From Sphaerimonospora mesophila NBRC 14179 = JCM 3151 (GTDB taxonomy: Bacteria; Actinomycetota; Actinomycetes; Streptosporangiales; Streptosporangiaceae): 24,000 bases of DNA. Positions 12,854-17,317 of the stretch are shown here, piece by piece. Both the position numbers and the translations under genes were made by a program. Below the pieces are notes generated by a model. It had not been told where the DNA came from. It saw only the letters and a list, made by a program, of their open reading frames with translations, and did not search any database. The first letter of the stretch is position 1; each line of letters starts with the position of its first letter. The stretch covers positions 70,884 through 94,883 of the forward strand of contig BCRI01000004.1 in assembly GCA_001552515.1 (NCBI GenBank), read 5' to 3'.

Positions 12854-14524
12854 ATGCACTGGCCAGAGGAGCTGACGGAGACCCCGGATCTGCACGGGGC
12901 CTATCCGCGGCTGAGCCGGGCCCGGATCGAGCGCCTCGCGGCGCGCGGCGAGCGGCGGCCGCTGAGCCGTGACGACGTGCTCTTCACCGAGGGCGAGCTG
13001 TCCGACGACTTCTTCGTCGTGCTCGACGGCAAGGTGGCGATGGTCGAGGAGTACGGCACGGCAGACCGTGTCGTCGGACTCCACGGCCCGGGGCGGTTCC
13101 TCGGCGAGATGAACGTGCTGAGCGGCCTGGCCGGGCGCCGGACGGCGGTGTGCGCCGAGCCCGGCGAGGTGCTCGCCGTGCCGGTGGACGAGCTGCGCCG
13201 GATGATCGGCCGGGACGCCGAGATGGGAGATCTGATCCTCCGGGCGTTCGTCATCCGCCGGTCTATGATCAGCGGACTGGGCACGGGCCTGCGCATCGTC
13301 GGTTCCCGGTTCTCCGCCGACACGCGTCGCCTGCGCGAGTTCGCCGTACGCAACCGTCTGCCGCACAAGTGGATCGACCTGGAGGAGGACTGGGAGACGG
13401 AGTGCTTCCTGCGGGCGATGGGCGTCGCGCCGGAGGAGACGCCCGTGGTGATCCTGCGGTGCGAGACCGTGCTGCGCAACCCGAGCAACGCCGAGCTGGC
13501 CGGGGCCGTCAACCTGCCGGCCCCGCGCACCTGGGAGACGGTGTGCGACCTGCTCGTCGTCGGAGCCGGCCCGGCGGGGCTGGCCGCCGCGGTGTACGGC
13601 GCGGCCGACGGCCTGTCGACGATCGTGGTCGACGGGGGCGCCATCGGCGGTCAGGCCCGCACCTCGCCCCGGATCGAGAGCCACCTGGGGTTCCCGTACG
13701 GAATCTCCGGGGACGAGCTGGTGGACCGGGCGATGACCCAGGCGACCGGGCTCGGCGCCTGCTTCCGCGTCCCGGCGGAGGCCGCCGCGCTCGACGGAAG
13801 CTGTGGTGACCACGTCGTCACCACGCGGGACGGCACGGTGATCCACTCTCGCGCGCTGATCGTCGCCACCGGAATCCGGTACCGCAGACTCCAACTGCCC
13901 GATATGGAGAGGTTCGAGCGGACGAGCGTCTACTACGCGGCGACCATGTTCGAGGCGCGGGAGTGCCGGCGGGATCCGATCGTGGTCGTGGGCGGGGGCG
14001 ACACCGCCGGGCAGGCGGCCCTGTTCCTGGCCGCGCACGCGGCGTGGGTCCGCCTGCTGGCCAGGGAGGGCGACCTGCGGGTGAACATGTCCCGCTATCT
14101 GGCCGTCGAGGTCGAGCGCGACCCGCGGATCCAGGTCATGCTGAACACCGAGGTCAGGGAGCTGACCGGCGGGAAGACGTTGGAGGCCGTGGTGGCCGAG
14201 GACAACGTCACCGGAGAGCGCCGCAGCATCGAGGCCCGCGCGCTGTTCGTCCTGATCGGGGCCGAGCCGCACACCCCCTGGCTGTCGGGCGAGATCTCCC
14301 TCGACCGTCGCGGATATGTCCTCACCGGCGCGCGCGCCGTCCGCTTCCAGGCGACGGCCGAGAGTCGTTCACCCGGCCGGCCGTTCCCGCTGGAGACCAG
14401 CAGGCCCGGCGTGTTCGCGGCGGGTGACGTGCGCAGCGGCTCCACCAAACGGGTCGTCTCAGCGGCCGGAGAGGGCGCGATGGCCGCGCGCCTGGTGCAC
14501 GAGCATCTCCGGTCGGCCTTCTGA
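12854..14524 (+). CDS. cyclic-nucleotide-binding domain fused to a thioredoxin-reductase-like FAD/NAD(P) oxidoreductase
   Basis: N-terminal cNMP-binding fold (LFTEGELSDDFFVVLDGKV...GPGRFLGEMNVLSG..RTAVCAA-like). C-terminal half has LLVVGAGPAGLAAAVY, GGQ, VVVGGGDTAGQAALFL and GVFAAGDVR. The position of the TrxR redox CATC reads AATM (13937-13948). Confidence 0.88.
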   Translation: MHWPEELTETPDLHGAYPRLSRARIERLAARGERRPLSRDDVLFTEGELSDDFFVVLDGKVAMVEEYGTADRVVGLHGPGRFLGEMNVLSGLAGRRTAVCAEPGEVLAVPVDELRRMIGRDAEMGDLILRAFVIRRSMISGLGTGLRIVGSRFSADTRRLREFAVRNRLPHKWIDLEEDWETECFLRAMGVAPEETPVVILRCETVLRNPSNAELAGAVNLPAPRTWETVCDLLVVGAGPAGLAAAVYGAADGLSTIVVDGGAIGGQARTSPRIESHLGFPYGISGDELVDRAMTQATGLGACFRVPAEAAALDGSCGDHVVTTRDGTVIHSRALIVATGIRYRRLQLPDMERFERTSVYYAATMFEARECRRDPIVVVGGGDTAGQAALFLAAHAAWVRLLAREGDLRVNMSRYLAVEVERDPRIQVMLNTEVRELTGGKTLEAVVAEDNVTGERRSIEARALFVLIGAEPHTPWLSGEISLDRRGYVLTGARAVRFQATAESRSPGRPFPLETSRPGVFAAGDVRSGSTKRVVSAAGEGAMAARLVHEHLRSAF

Positions 14525-14530
14525 ACGGCG

Positions 14531-14561
14531 AGGGAGGGGCGAGCCAAGCTCGCCCCTCCCT
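14531..14561. terminator. bidirectional hairpin between convergent genes
   Basis: Perfect 14-bp stem AGGGAGGGGCGAGC / GCTCGCCCCTCCCT around CAA, lying between the stops at 14524 (+) and 14584 (-). Confidence 0.7.
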
Positions 14562-14583
14562 ACCGGCCGGTGGTGCGGCCCGC

Positions 14584-15132
14584 TCAGTCCTCGTCGTCCG
14601 ACGACCACTGGCCGGAGCCGGTCTCACGCATCTGCTGGCCCGGCATCTGCTGGACGAGGTCCTGACCGGACAGCTTCCGCACCATCGGAGAATTGGCCTG
14701 CGGGTGCAGGAAGATGTCCTGCGGCTCCTGGCCCGCGTTCTGGACGATCGGCCCCTGGGGCCCCTGGCCGTCGGCGCCCTGGCCGATCTGCCCGGTCTGG
14801 ACCTCGGGACCGGCCTGGGCCGCCTGCGCGACGGGAGCCGTCTGCGGGGCGACCTGCCCGTTGGGGCCGGTCTGGCCGGTGGGGCCCTGCGCGGCCTGAG
14901 CGGCCGACTCCTGGGTGCCGGCCGCCACGAGGGGGCCGATCTTCTCGTTCTTGTCCCTCAGAAGCTGCTCCATGGCCTTGCTGGCGATGAGATCGGGCTG
15001 GTCCGCGTTCTGCATCGCGAAGGATGCGATCTTCTTGCCCGGGGAGGCGTCGGCGGCGGAGTGCTGGTCCGCTGGTGTGCCGACCGGTCCGGAAAGCAGG
15101 GCGGCCGCGATTATTGCAGTGCAGATAGGCAT
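14584..15132 (-). CDS. hypothetical exported low-complexity protein A (Q/G/P/A-rich, acidic C-terminus)
   Basis: 182 aa: MPICTAIIAAALLSGPVG..., then a short structured-looking segment (PDLIASKAMEQLLRDKNEKIGPL), then GQTGPNGQVAPQTAPVAQAAQAGPEVQTGQIGQGADGQGPQGP, ending SSDDED. A GGGGGA SD lies upstream. The start is fixed by in-frame TAA/TGA stops just upstream and by conservation with paralogue B. Confidence 0.65.
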   Translation of the reverse strand: MPICTAIIAAALLSGPVGTPADQHSAADASPGKKIASFAMQNADQPDLIASKAMEQLLRDKNEKIGPLVAAGTQESAAQAAQGPTGQTGPNGQVAPQTAPVAQAAQAGPEVQTGQIGQGADGQGPQGPIVQNAGQEPQDIFLHPQANSPMVRKLSGQDLVQQMPGQQMRETGSGQWSSDDED

Positions 15133-15224
15133 GAGAATTCCCCCGAAATGGTGGACGGTACATGCAAGACGTTAAGCGCCTCAAGTCGGACGATCACGGA
15201 CCCGATGCCCAGTGTCCGGTCAAA
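15133..15224 (-). promoter_or_regulatory. conserved promoter/5'-leader module, copy A
   Basis: A 92-nt stretch from TTTGACC (15224-15218, minus strand) to the ATG aligns with copy B with only a 2-nt indel. Conserved blocks: TTTGACC, TGATC, CGCTTA, CGTCTTGC, GTACC, TCCAC, CGGGGGA. Confidence 0.5.
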
Positions 15225-15276
15225 GAAGGGAATCCACCATTTCACCCGCGACAGCCGCCGAATGAACCTCGTACGG

Positions 15277-15309
15277 AGAGGGGTGGACCGTGACACGGCC
15301 CACCCCTCT
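15277..15309. terminator. GC-rich hairpin between the 9-bp repeat array and leader A (possible terminator of the fasciclin gene)
   Basis: 10-bp perfect stem AGAGGGGTGG / CCACCCCTCT with an inner CCG/CGG extension. No clear U-tract. Confidence 0.4.
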
Positions 15310-15348
15310 GCGTATTTCCCGACGTCCGCTGAATTCTCTTTTCGCAAA

Positions 15349-15455
15349 GGCCACTTCGGCGGCTCAGGCCGCTTCGGCTGCCTCGGTCAATCGGTCACTT
15401 CGGCCACTTCTGCTATTTCGGCCATTTCGGCCATTTCGACTATTTCGGCATCAGC
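15349..15455. repeat. about 12 tandem units of a 9-bp repeat (plus-strand consensus GGCCAYTTC; minus-strand GAARTGGCC)
   Basis: Read directly: ggccacttc ggcggctca ggccgcttc ggctgcctc ggtcaatc ggtcacttc ggccacttc tgctatttc ggccatttc ggccatttc gactatttc ggcatcagc. The last units overlap the stop and final codons of the fasciclin gene. Confidence 0.8.
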
Positions 15456-16108
15456 ACGCTGTCGATCATGTAGACGGTGGCGTTGCGGGTGACCACGTCA
15501 CCGCAGACCACGTTCGCATCGTTGATTTTGAAGCTCTGCCCGGAACCGCTGGTGGTCAGCTCGCCGCCCTGCACGGTCTTCAGCTTGCCGCGACGAAGGT
15601 CGGCCGGCGTCTTACGCCCCTTGACCACGTGATAGGCCATGAGGGCGCTGAGCGCCTGCTTGTTCCCCATGAGGCGGTCGAGCTTCTTCTTCGGGACCTT
15701 GGTGAAGGCTTCGTTCGTGGGCGCGAACAGCGTGAAGTCCTTGCCCTTGTTGAGCGTACGGGCCAGACCCGCGGTCCGCACCACTCCGGAAAGCGTCGAA
15801 AGCGACGGAATGCCGGAGATGGCCTTGCCGACCGGTTCACCCGTCACGGATGCCGGAACATCCGAGCAGGCGGCGCCGAACGGCGAGGCGGACGCGGACG
15901 GGGACGCCGAAGCGGATGGCGAGGCGGTGGCCGACTCCGTCTCCGAGGCGCTCGCCTCGACCTCCGGCGTCGCCGTGTCCGTCACCGTCTCATTCACCGC
16001 GGCCGGGGCCGCGGCGTCGCTCCCGCCTCCGCTGCCATCGCTGCCGCAGGCCGCGGTGAGCGACAGCACCGTGGCCAGAGCGGAAAAGGCGAGAAGTCGC
16101 GTCTTCAT
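15440..16108 (-). CDS. fasciclin (FAS1) domain lipoprotein, MPT70/MPT83-like
   Basis: 222 aa. Signal peptide with lipobox (MKTRLLAFSALATVLSLTAAC), a Ser/Ala/Pro/Glu-rich linker, then the FAS1 domain (FTLFAPTNEAF...L.YHVV...NATVYMIDSVLMP). An AGGGAG SD lies upstream. Confidence 0.9.
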   Translation of the reverse strand: MKTRLLAFSALATVLSLTAACGSDGSGGGSDAAAPAAVNETVTDTATPEVEASASETESATASPSASASPSASASPFGAACSDVPASVTGEPVGKAISGIPSLSTLSGVVRTAGLARTLNKGKDFTLFAPTNEAFTKVPKKKLDRLMGNKQALSALMAYHVVKGRKTPADLRRGKLKTVQGGELTTSGSGQSFKINDANVVCGDVVTRNATVYMIDSVLMPK

Positions 16109-16241
16109 CGAATCTCCCTGTGGTGGAGGTGGCGCCCGCCGGCCCGCGGGTGACAGGCGTAAGGGTGCGGAGAGGAACCGGAGATGCCTGCCGCCCGCGG
16201 GCCGTGGAACTCACGCGTCGATCAGCTGATCGGCAGGTGGA

Positions 16242-17114
16242 TCAACGCGATGTCCGGTGGTGTGCGCCCTTGCGTGCGCCCCAGCCGAACGAAGGCCACG
16301 ACTTCGCCTCCTGGTGCCCCTTGGCCTTGGGCAGCTGGACCGACTGCTTGCCCGCCTTCGACATGTCGGCCGTCGGGTTGATGACGAGGTCCTGCCCCTT
16401 CGCGTCGCGCCCGCTCCGGCCCCACTCGGCGGGGAAGGTGAAGCGCCCCGGGAAGAAGTCGTCGTCGGACTTCTCCTTCACCGCCGCCTGCGGTCCCTCG
16501 GCGGCGGCGGGCGCCGCGTTGGAGGTGTTGGCGGGCGGCTGGAACATGAAGGCCGGCCCGTCGTCCTCCGCGTCCTCCTGCTGCTGCGGCGCCTGCTGCT
16601 GACCCCCTTGCTGCTGGGGCTGCTGCGACTGCTGCTGGGGCTGCTGGGGCTGCTGCTGCATCCCGGCCTCCTGCAGCCACGGCGGCTGCATCGGCTGGAA
16701 CATCGCAGGCTGCATCGCTCCCGGCTGCTGGGCGGTACCGGGCGGCATCATGCCCGGCTGCTGGCCCATACCGGGCGGCATCATGCCGGGCTGCTGCATC
16801 ATGTCGGGCTGCTGGGTGATGCCGGGCTGGGTGATACCGGACGGCATCATGTCCGGTTGCATCGTGCCCGGCTGGGTCATGCCGGGCTGCATCATGCCCG
16901 GCTGCTGCATCGTGCTCTGGTTCTCCTGCGGCTGCTGCGCGCCGGCCTGCTGCAGCCACGGCGGCTGCATCCCGAACTGCGGCGCCCCGTACATCTGGCT
17001 GCTGTAGGGGTCGGTGTTGCTGGTGACGTCGCCCGGACCCGCTTCCTGTGGTGTGGCGGCGGCGGCCGGGCCGGCGAACAGGGCGGCGGCGAGTATGGCA
17101 GTGCAGATAGGCAT
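16242..17114 (-). CDS. hypothetical exported Gln/Pro/Met/Gly-rich protein B
   Basis: 290 aa from ATG 17114: MPICTAILAAALFAGPAAAATPQ..., then QPGMM/QPGMT/QQPGMMPPG repeats and a poly-Q/P tract (QQQPQQPQQQSQQPQQQGGQQQAPQQQ). It ends in a basic, non-repetitive ~100-aa C-terminal region. The start is chosen by conservation with protein A. The track's 365-aa version extends over the non-coding leader. Confidence 0.65.
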   Translation of the reverse strand: MPICTAILAAALFAGPAAAATPQEAGPGDVTSNTDPYSSQMYGAPQFGMQPPWLQQAGAQQPQENQSTMQQPGMMQPGMTQPGTMQPDMMPSGITQPGITQQPDMMQQPGMMPPGMGQQPGMMPPGTAQQPGAMQPAMFQPMQPPWLQEAGMQQQPQQPQQQSQQPQQQGGQQQAPQQQEDAEDDGPAFMFQPPANTSNAAPAAAEGPQAAVKEKSDDDFFPGRFTFPAEWGRSGRDAKGQDLVINPTADMSKAGKQSVQLPKAKGHQEAKSWPSFGWGARKGAHHRTSR

Positions 17115-17204
17115 GGACTCCCCCGATGTCGTGGAAGGTACGAGCAAGACGCTAAGCGGCCCACGGTGGATGATCATGTGTCCGACGCTCAATGTCGGGT
17201 CAAA
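17115..17204 (-). promoter_or_regulatory. conserved promoter/5'-leader module, copy B
   Basis: 90-nt counterpart of 15133-15224, from TTTGACC at 17204-17198 (minus strand) to the ATG. It lies in the 203-bp divergent intergenic region shared with the P450 gene. Confidence 0.5.
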
Positions 17205-17317
17205 CCTGAGGATCAGGCGCTTCATCTCGCAAAGATCTACAAACCGCGGTGCCCCACCTGGTTCGCGCACGCCGAGCCCGCCGTTTCCTCCCGGTATCGG
17301 CCGGGCAGGCCCGACGT

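What the first reader, a model, noticed from the sequence alone, without database searches (positions are those of the whole stretch)
15085..17204. Duplicated ~140-bp promoter/leader/signal-peptide cassette heads two otherwise unrelated low-complexity exported proteins that bracket a fasciclin lipoprotein
Seen in sequence:
- On the minus strand, 15224-15085 and 17204-17067 align end to end with a single 2-nt indel. By eye, about three quarters of positions are identical.
- The match starts exactly at TTTGACC. It runs through the blocks TGATC, CGCTTA, CGTCTTGC, GTACC, TCCAC and the SD CGGGGGA, then through the first ~16 codons (ATGCCTATCTGCACTGC..., MPICTAI[I/L]AAAL[L/F]xGP).
- Similarity then stops. 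The mature proteins are unrelated: A is Q/G/P/A-rich with an acidic tail, and B is Q/P/M/G-rich with a basic tail.
- The two genes flank an MPT70-like fasciclin lipoprotein gene on the same strand.

Inference: a shared regulatory and export module has been grafted onto different disordered cargo. This suggests co-regulation (shared sigma factor, regulator or leader RNA) of a small cell-envelope or surface gene set. The N-terminus is also odd for a Sec signal, with no basic n-region and a Cys at position 4. I know of no described family matching this arrangement.
Basis: partly seen in the sequence, partly recalled or inferred. Interest (0 to 1): 0.7.

Follow-up and report, generated by a model that had tools for sequence, protein, structure and literature searches.

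The report
Shared promoter and signal-peptide cassette of paralogues
Two genes for exported, mostly disordered proteins that flank a fasciclin lipoprotein gene carry the same ~140-165 bp promoter, short leader and signal-peptide start because they are ancient duplicates kept under common control in a few related actinomycete genera; the feature is real and strongly conserved, but of an ordinary kind.

Summary
The repeat is real. 15224-15085 and 17204-17067 (minus strand) share 109 of 140 positions with one 2-nt indel, against about 53% for unrelated segments. The window comes from Sphaerimonospora. The same cassette heads two genes, A-type and B-type, in every Microbispora, Sphaerimonospora and Planotetraspora genome hit by a pattern scan, nearly always in the order B, fasciclin lipoprotein, A. 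Similarity is confined to the cassette, and leaders group by type across genera. This points to an ancient duplication kept by purifying selection, not a recent duplication or gene conversion.

No RNA structure is supported: no Rfam match, a consensus fold of -2 kcal/mol, and folding weaker than shuffled controls. A TAnCnT hexamer is invariant in all copies. I read it as the -10 element, with TTGACCsGACAyTG as an upstream regulator site, a 27-29 nt unstructured 5' UTR with a GGGGGA Shine-Dalgarno, and MP[IL]CTA..AAALLSGP as an uncharged signal peptide.

The cargos are not unrelated. An A-family profile matches the window's B protein well above shuffles, on PGxFTxPA...QD[IL][FV][LI]xPT. Whole-gene duplication with divergence of the disordered regions fits better than grafting. 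The regulator, transcription start and export are untested.

The parts
15232..15244 (-). Cassette A, distal upstream box (TGAAAT GGT GGAT; family consensus TGAAGC-N3-TGATC)
   Evidence: Conserved in Microbispora, Sphaerimonospora, L038, L039 and L037-B. Not conserved in Planotetraspora or in the third cargo type.
15210..15223 (-). Cassette A, box TTGACCGGACACTG (family TTGACCsGACAyTG). Proposed regulator site about 50-60 nt upstream of the predicted start.
   Evidence: Twelve specified positions are invariant in the 35 distinct leaders of alignment A3, but those loci were retrieved with this block as the search pattern. The independently retrieved L037-A copy has AG instead of TG at the 3' end. 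Only 2 matches in the window, against 0.31 expected. No orphan copy in 345 kb of loci.
15192..15197 (-). Cassette A, GTGATC, a weak -35-like hexamer 17 nt upstream of the TAnCnT hexamer
   Evidence: T, A and mostly G and T conserved. Replaced by CAGACC in L037-B and by GTCATC in Planotetraspora. Its role as a -35 is inferred.
15169..15174 (-). Cassette A, TAACGT, proposed -10 hexamer (family TAnCnT, which fits the actinobacterial TANNNT)
   Evidence: Retained in every copy seen, including variants whose flanking GCT changed (L016, L032, L037-A, L038, L039-A).
15133..15161 (-). Cassette A, predicted 5' UTR of 29 nt. It starts at the invariant G of GTACC and includes TCCAC and the Shine-Dalgarno GGGGGA (15139-15144).
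   Evidence: An invariant G lies 8 nt after the hexamer. The Shine-Dalgarno-to-ATG spacer varies by 1-3 nt among copies, so the region is not coding. It folds no better than shuffles, z = +1.2. The transcription start is inferred.
15085..15132 (-). Gene A codons 1-16, MPICTAIIAAALLSGP: conserved N-terminal hydrophobic signal with no basic residue
   Evidence: Amino acids are conserved with free synonymous change from codon 8 on. Codons 2-7 nearly always end in A or T. GC3 is 33% here, against 92% for the rest of the gene.
14584..15132 (-). Gene A (182 aa), A-type exported and mostly disordered protein: helical hairpin at residues 31-64, QDIFLHP motif at residues 137-146 (14695-14724), acidic tail
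   Evidence: Orthologues found. AlphaFold2 gives pLDDT about 80 only for residues 31-64. No Pfam or NCBIfam match.
15271..15315 (-). Terminator-like hairpin between the fasciclin gene and cassette A
   Evidence: 15-bp stem, -38.3 kcal/mol, z = -6.0. This implies that gene A has its own promoter.
15440..16108 (-). Fasciclin-domain lipoprotein gene (MPT83-like), the conserved centre of the three-gene unit
   Evidence: PF02469, E = 4e-33. Lipobox signal. Lies between the two cassettes in all Microbispora and Sphaerimonospora loci.
16242..17114 (-). Gene B (290 aa), B-type exported Q/P/M/G-rich protein: motif FFPGRFTFPAEWGRSGRDAKGQDLVINPTA at residues 220-249 (16368-16457), basic tail
   Evidence: Translation. 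Orthologues. No family match. Motif shared with the A family.
17067..17114 (-). Gene B codons 1-16, MPICTAILAAALFAGP
   Evidence: 85% identical in DNA to the same codons of gene A.
17115..17141 (-). Cassette B, predicted 5' UTR of 27 nt, with TCCAC and the Shine-Dalgarno GGGGGA (17119-17124)
   Evidence: z = +0.84.
17149..17154 (-). Cassette B, TAGCGT, proposed -10 hexamer
17172..17177 (-). Cassette B, ATGATC (part of the palindrome ATGATCAT), -35-like
   Evidence: The palindrome covaries with GTGATCAC in Microbispora B-type leaders.
17190..17203 (-). Cassette B, box TTGACCCGACATTG
17211..17224 (-). Cassette B, distal upstream box TGAAGCGCCTGATC

Best explanation
Genes A and B are ancient paralogues of a lineage-specific family of exported, mostly disordered proteins. 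The family is found in Microbispora, Sphaerimonospora, Planotetraspora and a few relatives.

After duplication the low-complexity bodies diverged almost beyond recognition. Purifying selection kept four things:
1. About 110 bp of promoter DNA.
2. A short, unstructured 5' UTR with a strong GGGGGA Shine-Dalgarno.
3. The first 16 codons.
4. One short C-proximal motif.

Proposed working, all inferred. RNA polymerase uses the invariant TAnCnT hexamer as the -10 element, with a weak GTGATC as the -35, and starts at or beside the invariant G of GTACC. The invariant box TTGACCsGACAyTG (about -50 to -60) and the distal TGAAGC-N3-TGATC box are sites for one shared transcription factor, so both genes switch on together. 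The A/T-ending codons 2-7 and the structure-poor leader keep the initiation region open. MP[IL]CTA[VI]LAAALLSGP acts as a Sec-type signal, or a signal anchor, that lacks the usual basic n-region. It places both proteins in the envelope next to the fasciclin lipoprotein encoded between them.
For: Shown:
- The repeat is real and confined to the cassette.
- A scan of 185,579 species genomes found the cassette in 26 stretches, all from three genera. Each copy sits directly upstream of an ORF starting MP[IL]C.. or MLIC... A metagenome scan added only Microbispora-like contigs.
- The A-type family has only 12 representative clusters among 1.84 billion proteins.
- Leaders group by type across genera: 74-82% identity in the cassette, with flanks at background.
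- The order B, fasciclin, A is conserved.
- TAnCnT is retained in every copy, even where neighbouring bases changed.
- Indels of 1-3 nt lie in the Shine-Dalgarno-to-ATG spacer.
- The signal peptide shows synonymous variation with conserved residues, and codons 2-7 are A/T-biased.
- There is no RNA structure.
- A terminator-like hairpin precedes cassette A.
- The A profile matches Sphaerimonospora B proteins at z = 4.1-5.8, with 0 of 100 shuffles as high, on PGxFTxPA..QDxxxxPT. hhalign picks the same region as its top hit.
Against: - No transcription start, regulator or export data exist.
- TTGACC is a perfect -35 hexamer, yet it lies 43 nt from the proposed -10. It may instead belong to a separate upstream promoter whose -10 I cannot recognise.
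- GTGATC is a poor -35 and is lost in L037-B.
- The strict sigma-70 scan found no promoter in the leader.
- The A/B motif match is weak for Microbispora B proteins (z = -1 to 2.6). The hhalign P of 0.007 is only modestly better than the reversed controls, 0.04 and 0.08. Shuffles also destroy local repeats, which may inflate z.
- A signal peptide with no basic n-region is unusual. The unusually high conservation of these 16 residues hints at a more specific role than generic Sec targeting.
Confidence: 0.62

Rival explanations
1. Long-leader variant. TTGACC is the true -35 of the main promoter. Transcription starts about 30 nt downstream, and the conserved GTGATC..GCTTAnCnTC..GTACC..TCCAC blocks lie in a 5' UTR of about 60 nt. 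There they are read as primary sequence by an RNA-binding protein or a small RNA.
For: TTGACC is invariant in all 35 distinct copies and matches the actinobacterial -35 consensus. The sharp 5' edge of strong conservation falls exactly at this hexamer in Planotetraspora and in the third cargo type. Low predicted structure is compatible with a single-stranded binding platform.
Against: No TANNNT or other conserved hexamer lies 16-19 nt downstream. The columns there vary: GGGTCC, GGATGC, GGACAC, AGGTGC. The only invariant TANNNT is 43 nt away. Conservation continues upstream of TTGACC in most genera, which fits promoter DNA better than a transcript.
Confidence: 0.2
2. Module grafting. A promoter, leader and signal cassette was recombined onto two unrelated cargo genes.
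For: Outside the cassette, DNA identity is at background. BLASTP between the A and B mature parts is at best E = 0.007 over a low-complexity stretch.
Against: A and B share a collinear C-proximal motif scoring above shuffles. Both types occur in all three genera, and leaders group by type, so any such event would be very old and single. There are only 2-3 copies per genome, no terminal repeats and no copy heading any other kind of gene in 345 kb. Disordered low-complexity sequence is expected to diverge this fast after an ordinary duplication.
Confidence: 0.1
3. Structured cis-regulatory RNA: a riboswitch, attenuator or thermometer in the leader.
For: The noncoding conservation is unusually high. 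A short hairpin between GTGATC and GCTTA shows a few compensatory changes (L005-A, L007-A, L025). Only 10 of 500 shuffles reach the observed covariation score.
Against: No Rfam match, even at E <= 10. The RNAalifold consensus is -2.15 kcal/mol over 35 sequences. Only 67% of cells in the candidate helix are paired. Minimum free energies are weaker than shuffles, z = +0.7 to +2.05.
Confidence: 0.05
4. Recent segmental duplication or ongoing gene conversion keeps the two copies alike.
For: The two copies lie 2 kb apart on the same strand.
Against: Flanks and gene bodies are at background identity. Type-specific substitutions are shared across genera: ACACTG against ACATTG, GGGGGAA against GGGGGAG, and the spacer length. 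Each copy is therefore closer to its orthologue (74-93%) than to its paralogue (64-75%).
Confidence: 0.03

Closest known systems
Mycobacterial mpt83/mpt70 fasciclin loci and the SigK-RskA regulon (PMC7509140, which cites Veyrier et al. 2008)
   Same: A fasciclin-domain lipoprotein (MPT83-like) sits at the centre of a small, co-regulated envelope gene set. Neighbouring genes share a promoter type. The function of the fasciclin protein is unknown.
   Different: No sigma or anti-sigma gene lies within about 6 kb in any locus examined (gene tables). The shared promoter heads the flanking A and B genes, not the fasciclin gene. I could not retrieve the SigK site consensus, so a match to it is untested. 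A and B have no mycobacterial counterpart that I found.
Chaplin and rodlin gene sets of Streptomyces (my own knowledge, not tested here)
   Same: Several paralogous genes for small secreted surface proteins keep similar signal peptides and a common promoter type, so that they are expressed together.
   Different: Chaplins have a conserved hydrophobic amyloid domain and canonical basic signal peptides. A and B are hydrophilic, Q/P/G-rich and mostly disordered. No sigma-BldN-like motif was recognised here.
Canonical Sec (SPase I) signal peptides
   Same: A hydrophobic core of 12-13 residues is followed by Gly-Pro and small residues. In B this reads ...AGPAAAA/TPQ. Acidic residues follow the core.
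   Different: There is no Lys or Arg in the n-region, which is only Met-Pro. The 16 residues are far more conserved than signal peptides normally are. They are the best-conserved part of both families.
Cis-regulatory leader RNAs of actinobacterial envelope genes, such as the ydaO-type c-di-AMP riboswitch upstream of cell-wall hydrolase genes (my own knowledge)
   Same: A conserved noncoding block upstream of exported-protein genes, repeated within a genome.
   Different: No Rfam match and no conserved fold. The conservation is in primary sequence and probably lies mostly upstream of the transcription start.

Membership tests
Sec-type (SPase I) signal peptide, genes A and B | Positively charged n-region | tested here: not met
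   The N-terminus is Met-Pro followed directly by the hydrophobic core. None of the 35 distinct copies has K or R in residues 1-16.
Sec-type (SPase I) signal peptide, genes A and B | Hydrophobic h-region of about 7-15 residues, then a helix breaker | tested here: met
   I/L3 to L13 followed by (S/A)-G-P. A9, A10, L12 and P16 are invariant and A11, L13 and G15 nearly so. AlphaFold2 gives a short N-terminal helix. At 12-13 residues the core is too short for a typical membrane span.
Sec-type (SPase I) signal peptide, genes A and B | c-region with small residues at -3 and -1, and actual cleavage and export | tested here: inconclusive
   B has GPAAAA/TPQ, a plausible AxA site. A has GPVG/TPAD, which is weaker. 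No predictor such as SignalP was available. Export needs an experiment.
Bacterial lipoprotein signal (lipobox), genes A and B | [LVI][ASTVI][GAS]-C at the end of a signal of about 15-25 residues; invariant Cys | tested here: not met
   The Cys is residue 4, before the hydrophobic core. It is replaced by V or A in 3 of 35 distinct copies and by S in L037. By contrast the fasciclin gene has MKTRLL...LTAAC.
Tat signal peptide, genes A and B | Twin-arginine motif (S/T-R-R-x-F-L-K) in the n-region | tested here: not met
   No Arg in the first 16 residues of any of the 35 distinct copies.
Fasciclin (FAS1) domain protein, MPT83-like lipoprotein (central gene) | Match to the PF02469 domain plus a lipoprotein signal | tested here: met
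   PF02469, E = 4.2e-33, covering profile positions 2-123 of 123. Lipobox-type N-terminus conserved in 20 orthologues.
Known cis-regulatory RNA family (Rfam 15) | Covariance-model match at or near the gathering score | tested here: not met
   No match at gathering threshold in the whole window. At E <= 10 there are only chance-level hits to eukaryotic miRNA and snoRNA models, none on the leader in sense.
Structured leader RNA (any, new) | A conserved secondary structure supported by covariation, and stability above background | tested here: not met
   RNAalifold gives -2.15 kcal/mol. The candidate helix is 67% paired. z-scores are +0.7 to +2.05.
Housekeeping-sigma (HrdB/SigA-type) actinobacterial promoter | -10 hexamer TANNNT | tested here: met
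   TA[ACG]C[GT]T is retained in every copy, including variants with changed flanks.
Housekeeping-sigma (HrdB/SigA-type) actinobacterial promoter | -35 hexamer TTGACN 16-19 nt upstream of the -10 | tested here: inconclusive
   The perfect TTGACC lies 43 nt upstream. At 17-18 nt there is only GTGATC, matching 3 of 6 positions. The strict scan found nothing. Many actinobacterial promoters lack a -35 (my own knowledge).
Housekeeping-sigma (HrdB/SigA-type) actinobacterial promoter | Mapped transcription start 6-8 nt downstream of the -10 | not testable with these tools
   Needs 5'-RACE or dRNA-seq. An invariant G lies 8 nt downstream.
SigK (ECF19) regulon / mpt83-sigK-rskA cassette | sigK and rskA genes adjacent to the fasciclin gene | tested here: not met
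   No sigma or anti-sigma Pfam family among the called genes within about 4-6 kb in L001, L002, L004, L005, L036 and L039.
SigK (ECF19) regulon / mpt83-sigK-rskA cassette | SigK-type promoter motif upstream of the genes | not tested
   The paper giving the consensus (PMC2258859) is not held. The texts I could read give no sequence.
One paralogous protein family comprising A-type and B-type | Sequence similarity beyond composition outside the signal peptide | tested here: met
   The A profile against Sphaerimonospora B proteins gives z = 4.1-5.8, with 0 of 100 shuffles as high, on PGxFTxPA..QDxxxxPT. The match is weak for Microbispora B (z = -1 to 2.6). hhalign gives P = 0.007 against 0.04 and 0.08 for the reversed controls. 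Overall this is met, but not strongly.

The most novel reading that the evidence does not exclude
The 16-residue N-terminus MP[IL]CTA[VI]LAAALLSGP may be more than a generic Sec signal. It could be a dedicated sorting or anchoring tag read by lineage-specific machinery. The invariant TTGACCsGACAyTG box would then be the operator of a dedicated regulator. Together they would define a previously undescribed envelope module, in which two tethered disordered proteins work with an MPT83-like fasciclin lipoprotein. That would give a genetic handle on the still unknown function of MPT70/MPT83-type proteins.
Probability: 0.12. Interest if true: 0.6.

Novelty: new member of a known kind. Interest (0 to 1): 0.33.

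Why it matters
The finding defines an uncharacterised three-gene unit: a B-type disordered protein, a fasciclin lipoprotein and an A-type disordered protein. The unit has been conserved since before Microbispora, Sphaerimonospora and Planotetraspora split.

It also yields an unusually well-delimited promoter region. The invariant boxes can be used directly as bait for the unknown regulator and as a reporter.

The role of MPT70/MPT83-like fasciclin proteins is still unknown (PMC7509140; PMC4105308). Conserved, co-regulated partner genes in non-pathogenic relatives offer a tractable entry point.

The uncharged but highly conserved signal peptide is a small oddity worth one export experiment. None of this overturns current understanding. 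It is a tidy example of regulatory and targeting sequence outliving the coding body of duplicated genes for disordered proteins.

Tried and rejected
1. An error of mine. Searches queried gene B as 16242-17115, one base too long, so the translation was out of frame. Those B results are void. They were redone with 16242-17114. There is still no family match, and the homologue search was saturated by Q/P-rich words, returning one hit (P0018).
2. Upstream ORF or N-terminal extension. In the window, B is open in frame through the leader. But the Shine-Dalgarno-to-ATG spacer differs by 1-3 nt among orthologues, codon usage is un-actinobacterial, and substitutions are not concentrated at third positions. 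Rejected.
3. Riboswitch or structured leader. Rejected.
4. SigK/ECF19 promoter. This lead came from the literature, but the consensus could not be retrieved. Untested.
5. By eye I compared the boxes with motifs recalled from memory: ECF-type (AAC..CGT), sigma-B/F-type (GTTT..GGGTA), WhiG-type, sigma-54, and the PhoP, BldD, BldM, MtrA, CRP and WhiA (GACAC) sites. None fitted in both sequence and spacing. Only the GACAC resemblance in A-type leaders remains, as a weak lead. These are not tests.
6. A shared motif TTCCAYGAC plus Shine-Dalgarno also lies upstream of the fasciclin genes. It occurs before thrS and elsewhere too, so it is probably not specific.
7. The fasciclin upstream regions are not conserved between genera and do not carry the cassette.
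8. The simple promoter scan finds nothing in the leader.
9. Mobile-element idea. Rejected: no terminal repeats, 2-3 copies per genome and orthologous positions.

Full report
**1. The observation**

On the minus strand, 15224-15085 and 17204-17067 align end to end. There are 109 identical positions in 140 columns (77.9%) and two gap positions, both in the spacer between GGGGGA and ATG. The local alignment score is 76, against 10.0 +/- 1.8 for shuffles. No other part of the window scores comparably. Gene A is 14584-15132 (182 aa). Gene B is 16242-17114 (290 aa). The gene between them, 15440-16108, is a fasciclin-domain protein (PF02469, E = 4e-33) with a lipoprotein-type signal.

**2. Where it occurs**

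Gene A is 99% identical to a hypothetical protein of Sphaerimonospora mesophila. I scanned one genome from each of 185,579 species with the pattern TTGACCNGACANTG-N26-40-GCTTANCNTC-N16-34-GGGGGA. This returned 26 stretches, all from Microbispora, Sphaerimonospora or Planotetraspora, and usually two copies 1.5-2.2 kb apart on one strand.

Every copy is followed, 5-10 nt after GGGGGA, by an ATG and an ORF starting MP[IL]C[TS]A[VI]LAAALLSGP. There are a few variants: MPLVTA, MPIATA and MLICTA. A looser scan of metagenomes found three contigs from one sample, all Microbispora-like. An exhaustive profile search with the A family found only 12 representative clusters among 1.84 billion proteins. Two of these led to unnamed relatives with the same gene order and a more degenerate cassette (L037 and L039).

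**3. What the cassette heads**

The ORFs fall into three groups:
- An A-type, with orthologues in all three genera.
- A B-type, also in all three genera. The Sphaerimonospora, Microbispora and Planotetraspora subgroups are linked at E of about 1e-5.
- A rare third type, in L025 and L028.

In all Microbispora and Sphaerimonospora loci, and in L037 and L039, the order is B, fasciclin, A. In Planotetraspora, B lies next to a convergent fasciclin gene and A is elsewhere. No locus has a sigma factor or other regulator consistently nearby (gene tables).

**4. History**

I measured identity by region for seven paralogue pairs. It is 64-75% from TTGACC to ATG and 57-85% in codons 1-16. It is 47-63% in the flanks and the rest of the coding sequence. 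Unrelated segments give 53 +/- 3%.

Orthologues in different genera keep 74-82% in the cassette while their flanks are at background. Leaders carry type-specific differences that are shared across genera: ACACTG against ACATTG, GGGGGAA against GGGGGAG, and the spacer length. The duplication is therefore older than the three genera. Each copy has been held by purifying selection. Recent segmental duplication and gene conversion are both excluded.

**5. Are the cargos unrelated?**

Not entirely.
- hhalign of the A and B mature-part alignments picks FTMPA..PQDIFLHP against YVPV.IDPKTRDVFIQP as its best hit. The score is 24.7 (P = 0.007), against 19.8 and 17.9 for reversed controls.
- An HMM of the A family scores the window's B protein 38.6 bits, against 21.4 +/- 3.8 for 100 composition-matched shuffles. 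The other Sphaerimonospora B proteins give z = 4.1-5.8.
- The alignment has high posterior support on sqPGsmFTmPAt...PqDiFLhPTa against FFPG-RFTFPAEW...GQDLVINPTA.
- For Microbispora B proteins the signal is weak (z = -1 to 2.6).

I conclude, with moderate confidence, that A and B descend from one gene. The 'grafting' reading is less parsimonious.

Neither protein matches Pfam or NCBIfam. AlphaFold2 on A gives only a helical hairpin at residues 31-64 (pLDDT about 80). The rest is low-confidence and coil-like, as expected for disorder.

**6. Is there a leader RNA?**

Nothing supports one.
- There is no Rfam match at gathering scores. At E <= 10 there are only chance-level hits.
- RNAalifold over 35 distinct leaders gives -2.15 kcal/mol.
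- The one hairpin I could propose, between GTGATC and GCTTA, is paired in only 67% of cells.
- The leaders fold less well than dinucleotide shuffles, z = +0.7 to +2.05.
- Coding of the leader is excluded by the 1-3 nt length differences in the Shine-Dalgarno-to-ATG spacer.

**7. Anatomy and proposed mechanism (inferred)**

The conserved blocks are as follows.

| Block | Cassette A | Cassette B |
|---|---|---|
| TGAAGC-N3-TGATC (not in Planotetraspora) | 15244-15232 | 17224-17211 |
| TTGACCsGACAyTG | 15223-15210 | 17203-17190 |
| (C)GTGATC | 15197-15192 | 17177-17172 |
| GCTTAnCnTC | includes 15174-15169 | includes 17154-17149 |
| GTAC | G at 15161 | G at 17141 |
| TCCA, then TCGGGGGA | GGGGGA at 15144-15139 | GGGGGA at 17124-17119 |
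| ATGCC | ATG at 15132 | ATG at 17114 |

The hexamer TA[ACG]C[GT]T fits the actinobacterial -10 consensus TANNNT. It is retained in every copy, including variants in which the preceding GCT has changed (L016, L032, L037-A, L038 and L039-A). An invariant G lies 8 nt downstream of it.

I therefore place the -10 at 15174-15169 and 17154-17149, and the start near 15161 and 17141. This gives 5' UTRs of 29 and 27 nt. On that reading TTGACCsGACAyTG lies about 50-60 nt upstream of the start, and with the distal box is best explained as the binding region of a shared activator. The cassettes have 54.5% and 59.1% G+C, in a window of 70.5%.

The main rival places the start soon after TTGACC, which is a perfect -35. 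I could find no conserved -10 at the right spacing for it, so I rate it lower. Only transcription-start mapping can decide.

**8. The N-terminus**

In 35 distinct copies, residues 1-16 are nearly invariant at the protein level. Synonymous changes are free from codon 8 on. The coding part of the repeat is therefore kept by selection on the peptide.

Codons 2-7 almost always end in A or T: CCT in 32 of 35, ACT or ACA in 31 of 35, GTA or ATA in 31 of 35. GC3 here is 33-50%, against more than 92% in the rest of the genes. This fits selection for an open initiation region.

The peptide has a 12-13 residue hydrophobic core followed by Gly-Pro and small residues, as in a Sec signal. It has no basic residue and no twin arginine. 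The Cys at position 4 precedes the core and is replaceable, so it is not a lipobox. Export is likely but unproven. The high conservation of the peptide is the one feature that remains somewhat odd.

**9. Comparison with what is known**

The nearest known situation is the mycobacterial mpt83/mpt70 locus. There a fasciclin lipoprotein and its neighbours form a small regulon under SigK-RskA (PMC7509140). In the present case no sigK or rskA is nearby, and the shared promoter heads the flanking genes rather than the fasciclin gene. I could not obtain the SigK consensus to test it.

In kind, this is a pair of co-regulated paralogues that have kept their promoter and signal peptide. That makes it a new member of a known kind, belonging to an undescribed, narrowly distributed protein family.

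**10. Verdict**

The feature is real, conserved and cleanly delimited. 'Grafting', 'unrelated cargo' and 'leader RNA' are not supported. Interest is modest.

Noticed in passing
window 15391-15449: A 9-nt tandem repeat (unit TCGGCCATT on the plus strand, AATGGCCGA on the gene strand) in 6.6 copies. It straddles the stop codon of the fasciclin gene and continues into its 3' region.
   Followed up: no
window 16110-16245 (minus strand): The spacer between B and the fasciclin gene folds into a long imperfect hairpin with arms GGCCCGCGGGCGGCAGGC / GCCUGUCACCCGCGGGCC (-63.9 kcal/mol, z = -3.5). In Microbispora the same spacer holds a different, strong terminator-like hairpin. Whether B and the fasciclin gene are co-transcribed is open.
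   Followed up: partly
window 14530-14562 and 15271-15315 (minus strand): Two very stable terminator-like hairpins without U-tails bracket the transcription unit of gene A (-43.5 and -38.3 kcal/mol, z about -6). The second is what Rfam weakly matched as 'mir-485' on the opposite strand.
   Followed up: yes
window 16578-16915: Gene B contains nested coding repeats with periods of 15, 18, 33 and 45 nt, encoding the (Q)PGMMQ-type units. Copy number differs among close relatives: B is 244, 249, 255, 279 and 290 aa in L005, L006, L001, L002 and the window.
   Followed up: partly
window 17172-17179; L007 and other Microbispora B-type leaders: In B-type leaders the -35-like box is a perfect 8-nt palindrome whose outer pair covaries: ATGATCAT in Sphaerimonospora and GTGATCAC in Microbispora. 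This could be a dimer-binding site. A-type leaders are not palindromic here.
   Followed up: no
L025:1835 (Microbispora corallina); L028:2667 (Microbispora sp. NPDC049125): A third cargo type carries the cassette. The proteins start MLICTA.., are A/P-rich, and have a ..HE[IY]LVVPIP.. motif and a basic tail. No fasciclin gene lies within the 8-kb loci. In NPDC049125 an A-type copy sits elsewhere, next to a BTAD/AAA regulator gene (L038).
   Followed up: partly
L036 and L037 (ENA assemblies): An unnamed relative is recorded in 121 blocks of the assembly collection. It keeps the order B, fasciclin, A, aldo-keto reductase, ThrRS, with a degenerate cassette. B starts MISTAM and lacks GTGATC. A starts MPLSSA and has TTGACCCGACACAG. 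Its B cassette fits the scan pattern, yet no genome in the species collection matched it.
   Followed up: partly
Fasciclin upstream regions in L004, L007 and others; L036:6025: A motif TTCCAYGAC followed by the Shine-Dalgarno precedes the fasciclin genes and also thrS, and resembles the cassette's TCCACGAC-Shine-Dalgarno. It is probably a general feature of initiation regions in this lineage rather than part of the cassette.
   Followed up: partly
window 12854-14524 (plus strand): The gene convergent with A encodes a fusion of a cyclic-nucleotide-binding domain with a thioredoxin-reductase-like pyridine-nucleotide-disulphide oxidoreductase. It is conserved at this position in Sphaerimonospora.
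   Followed up: no
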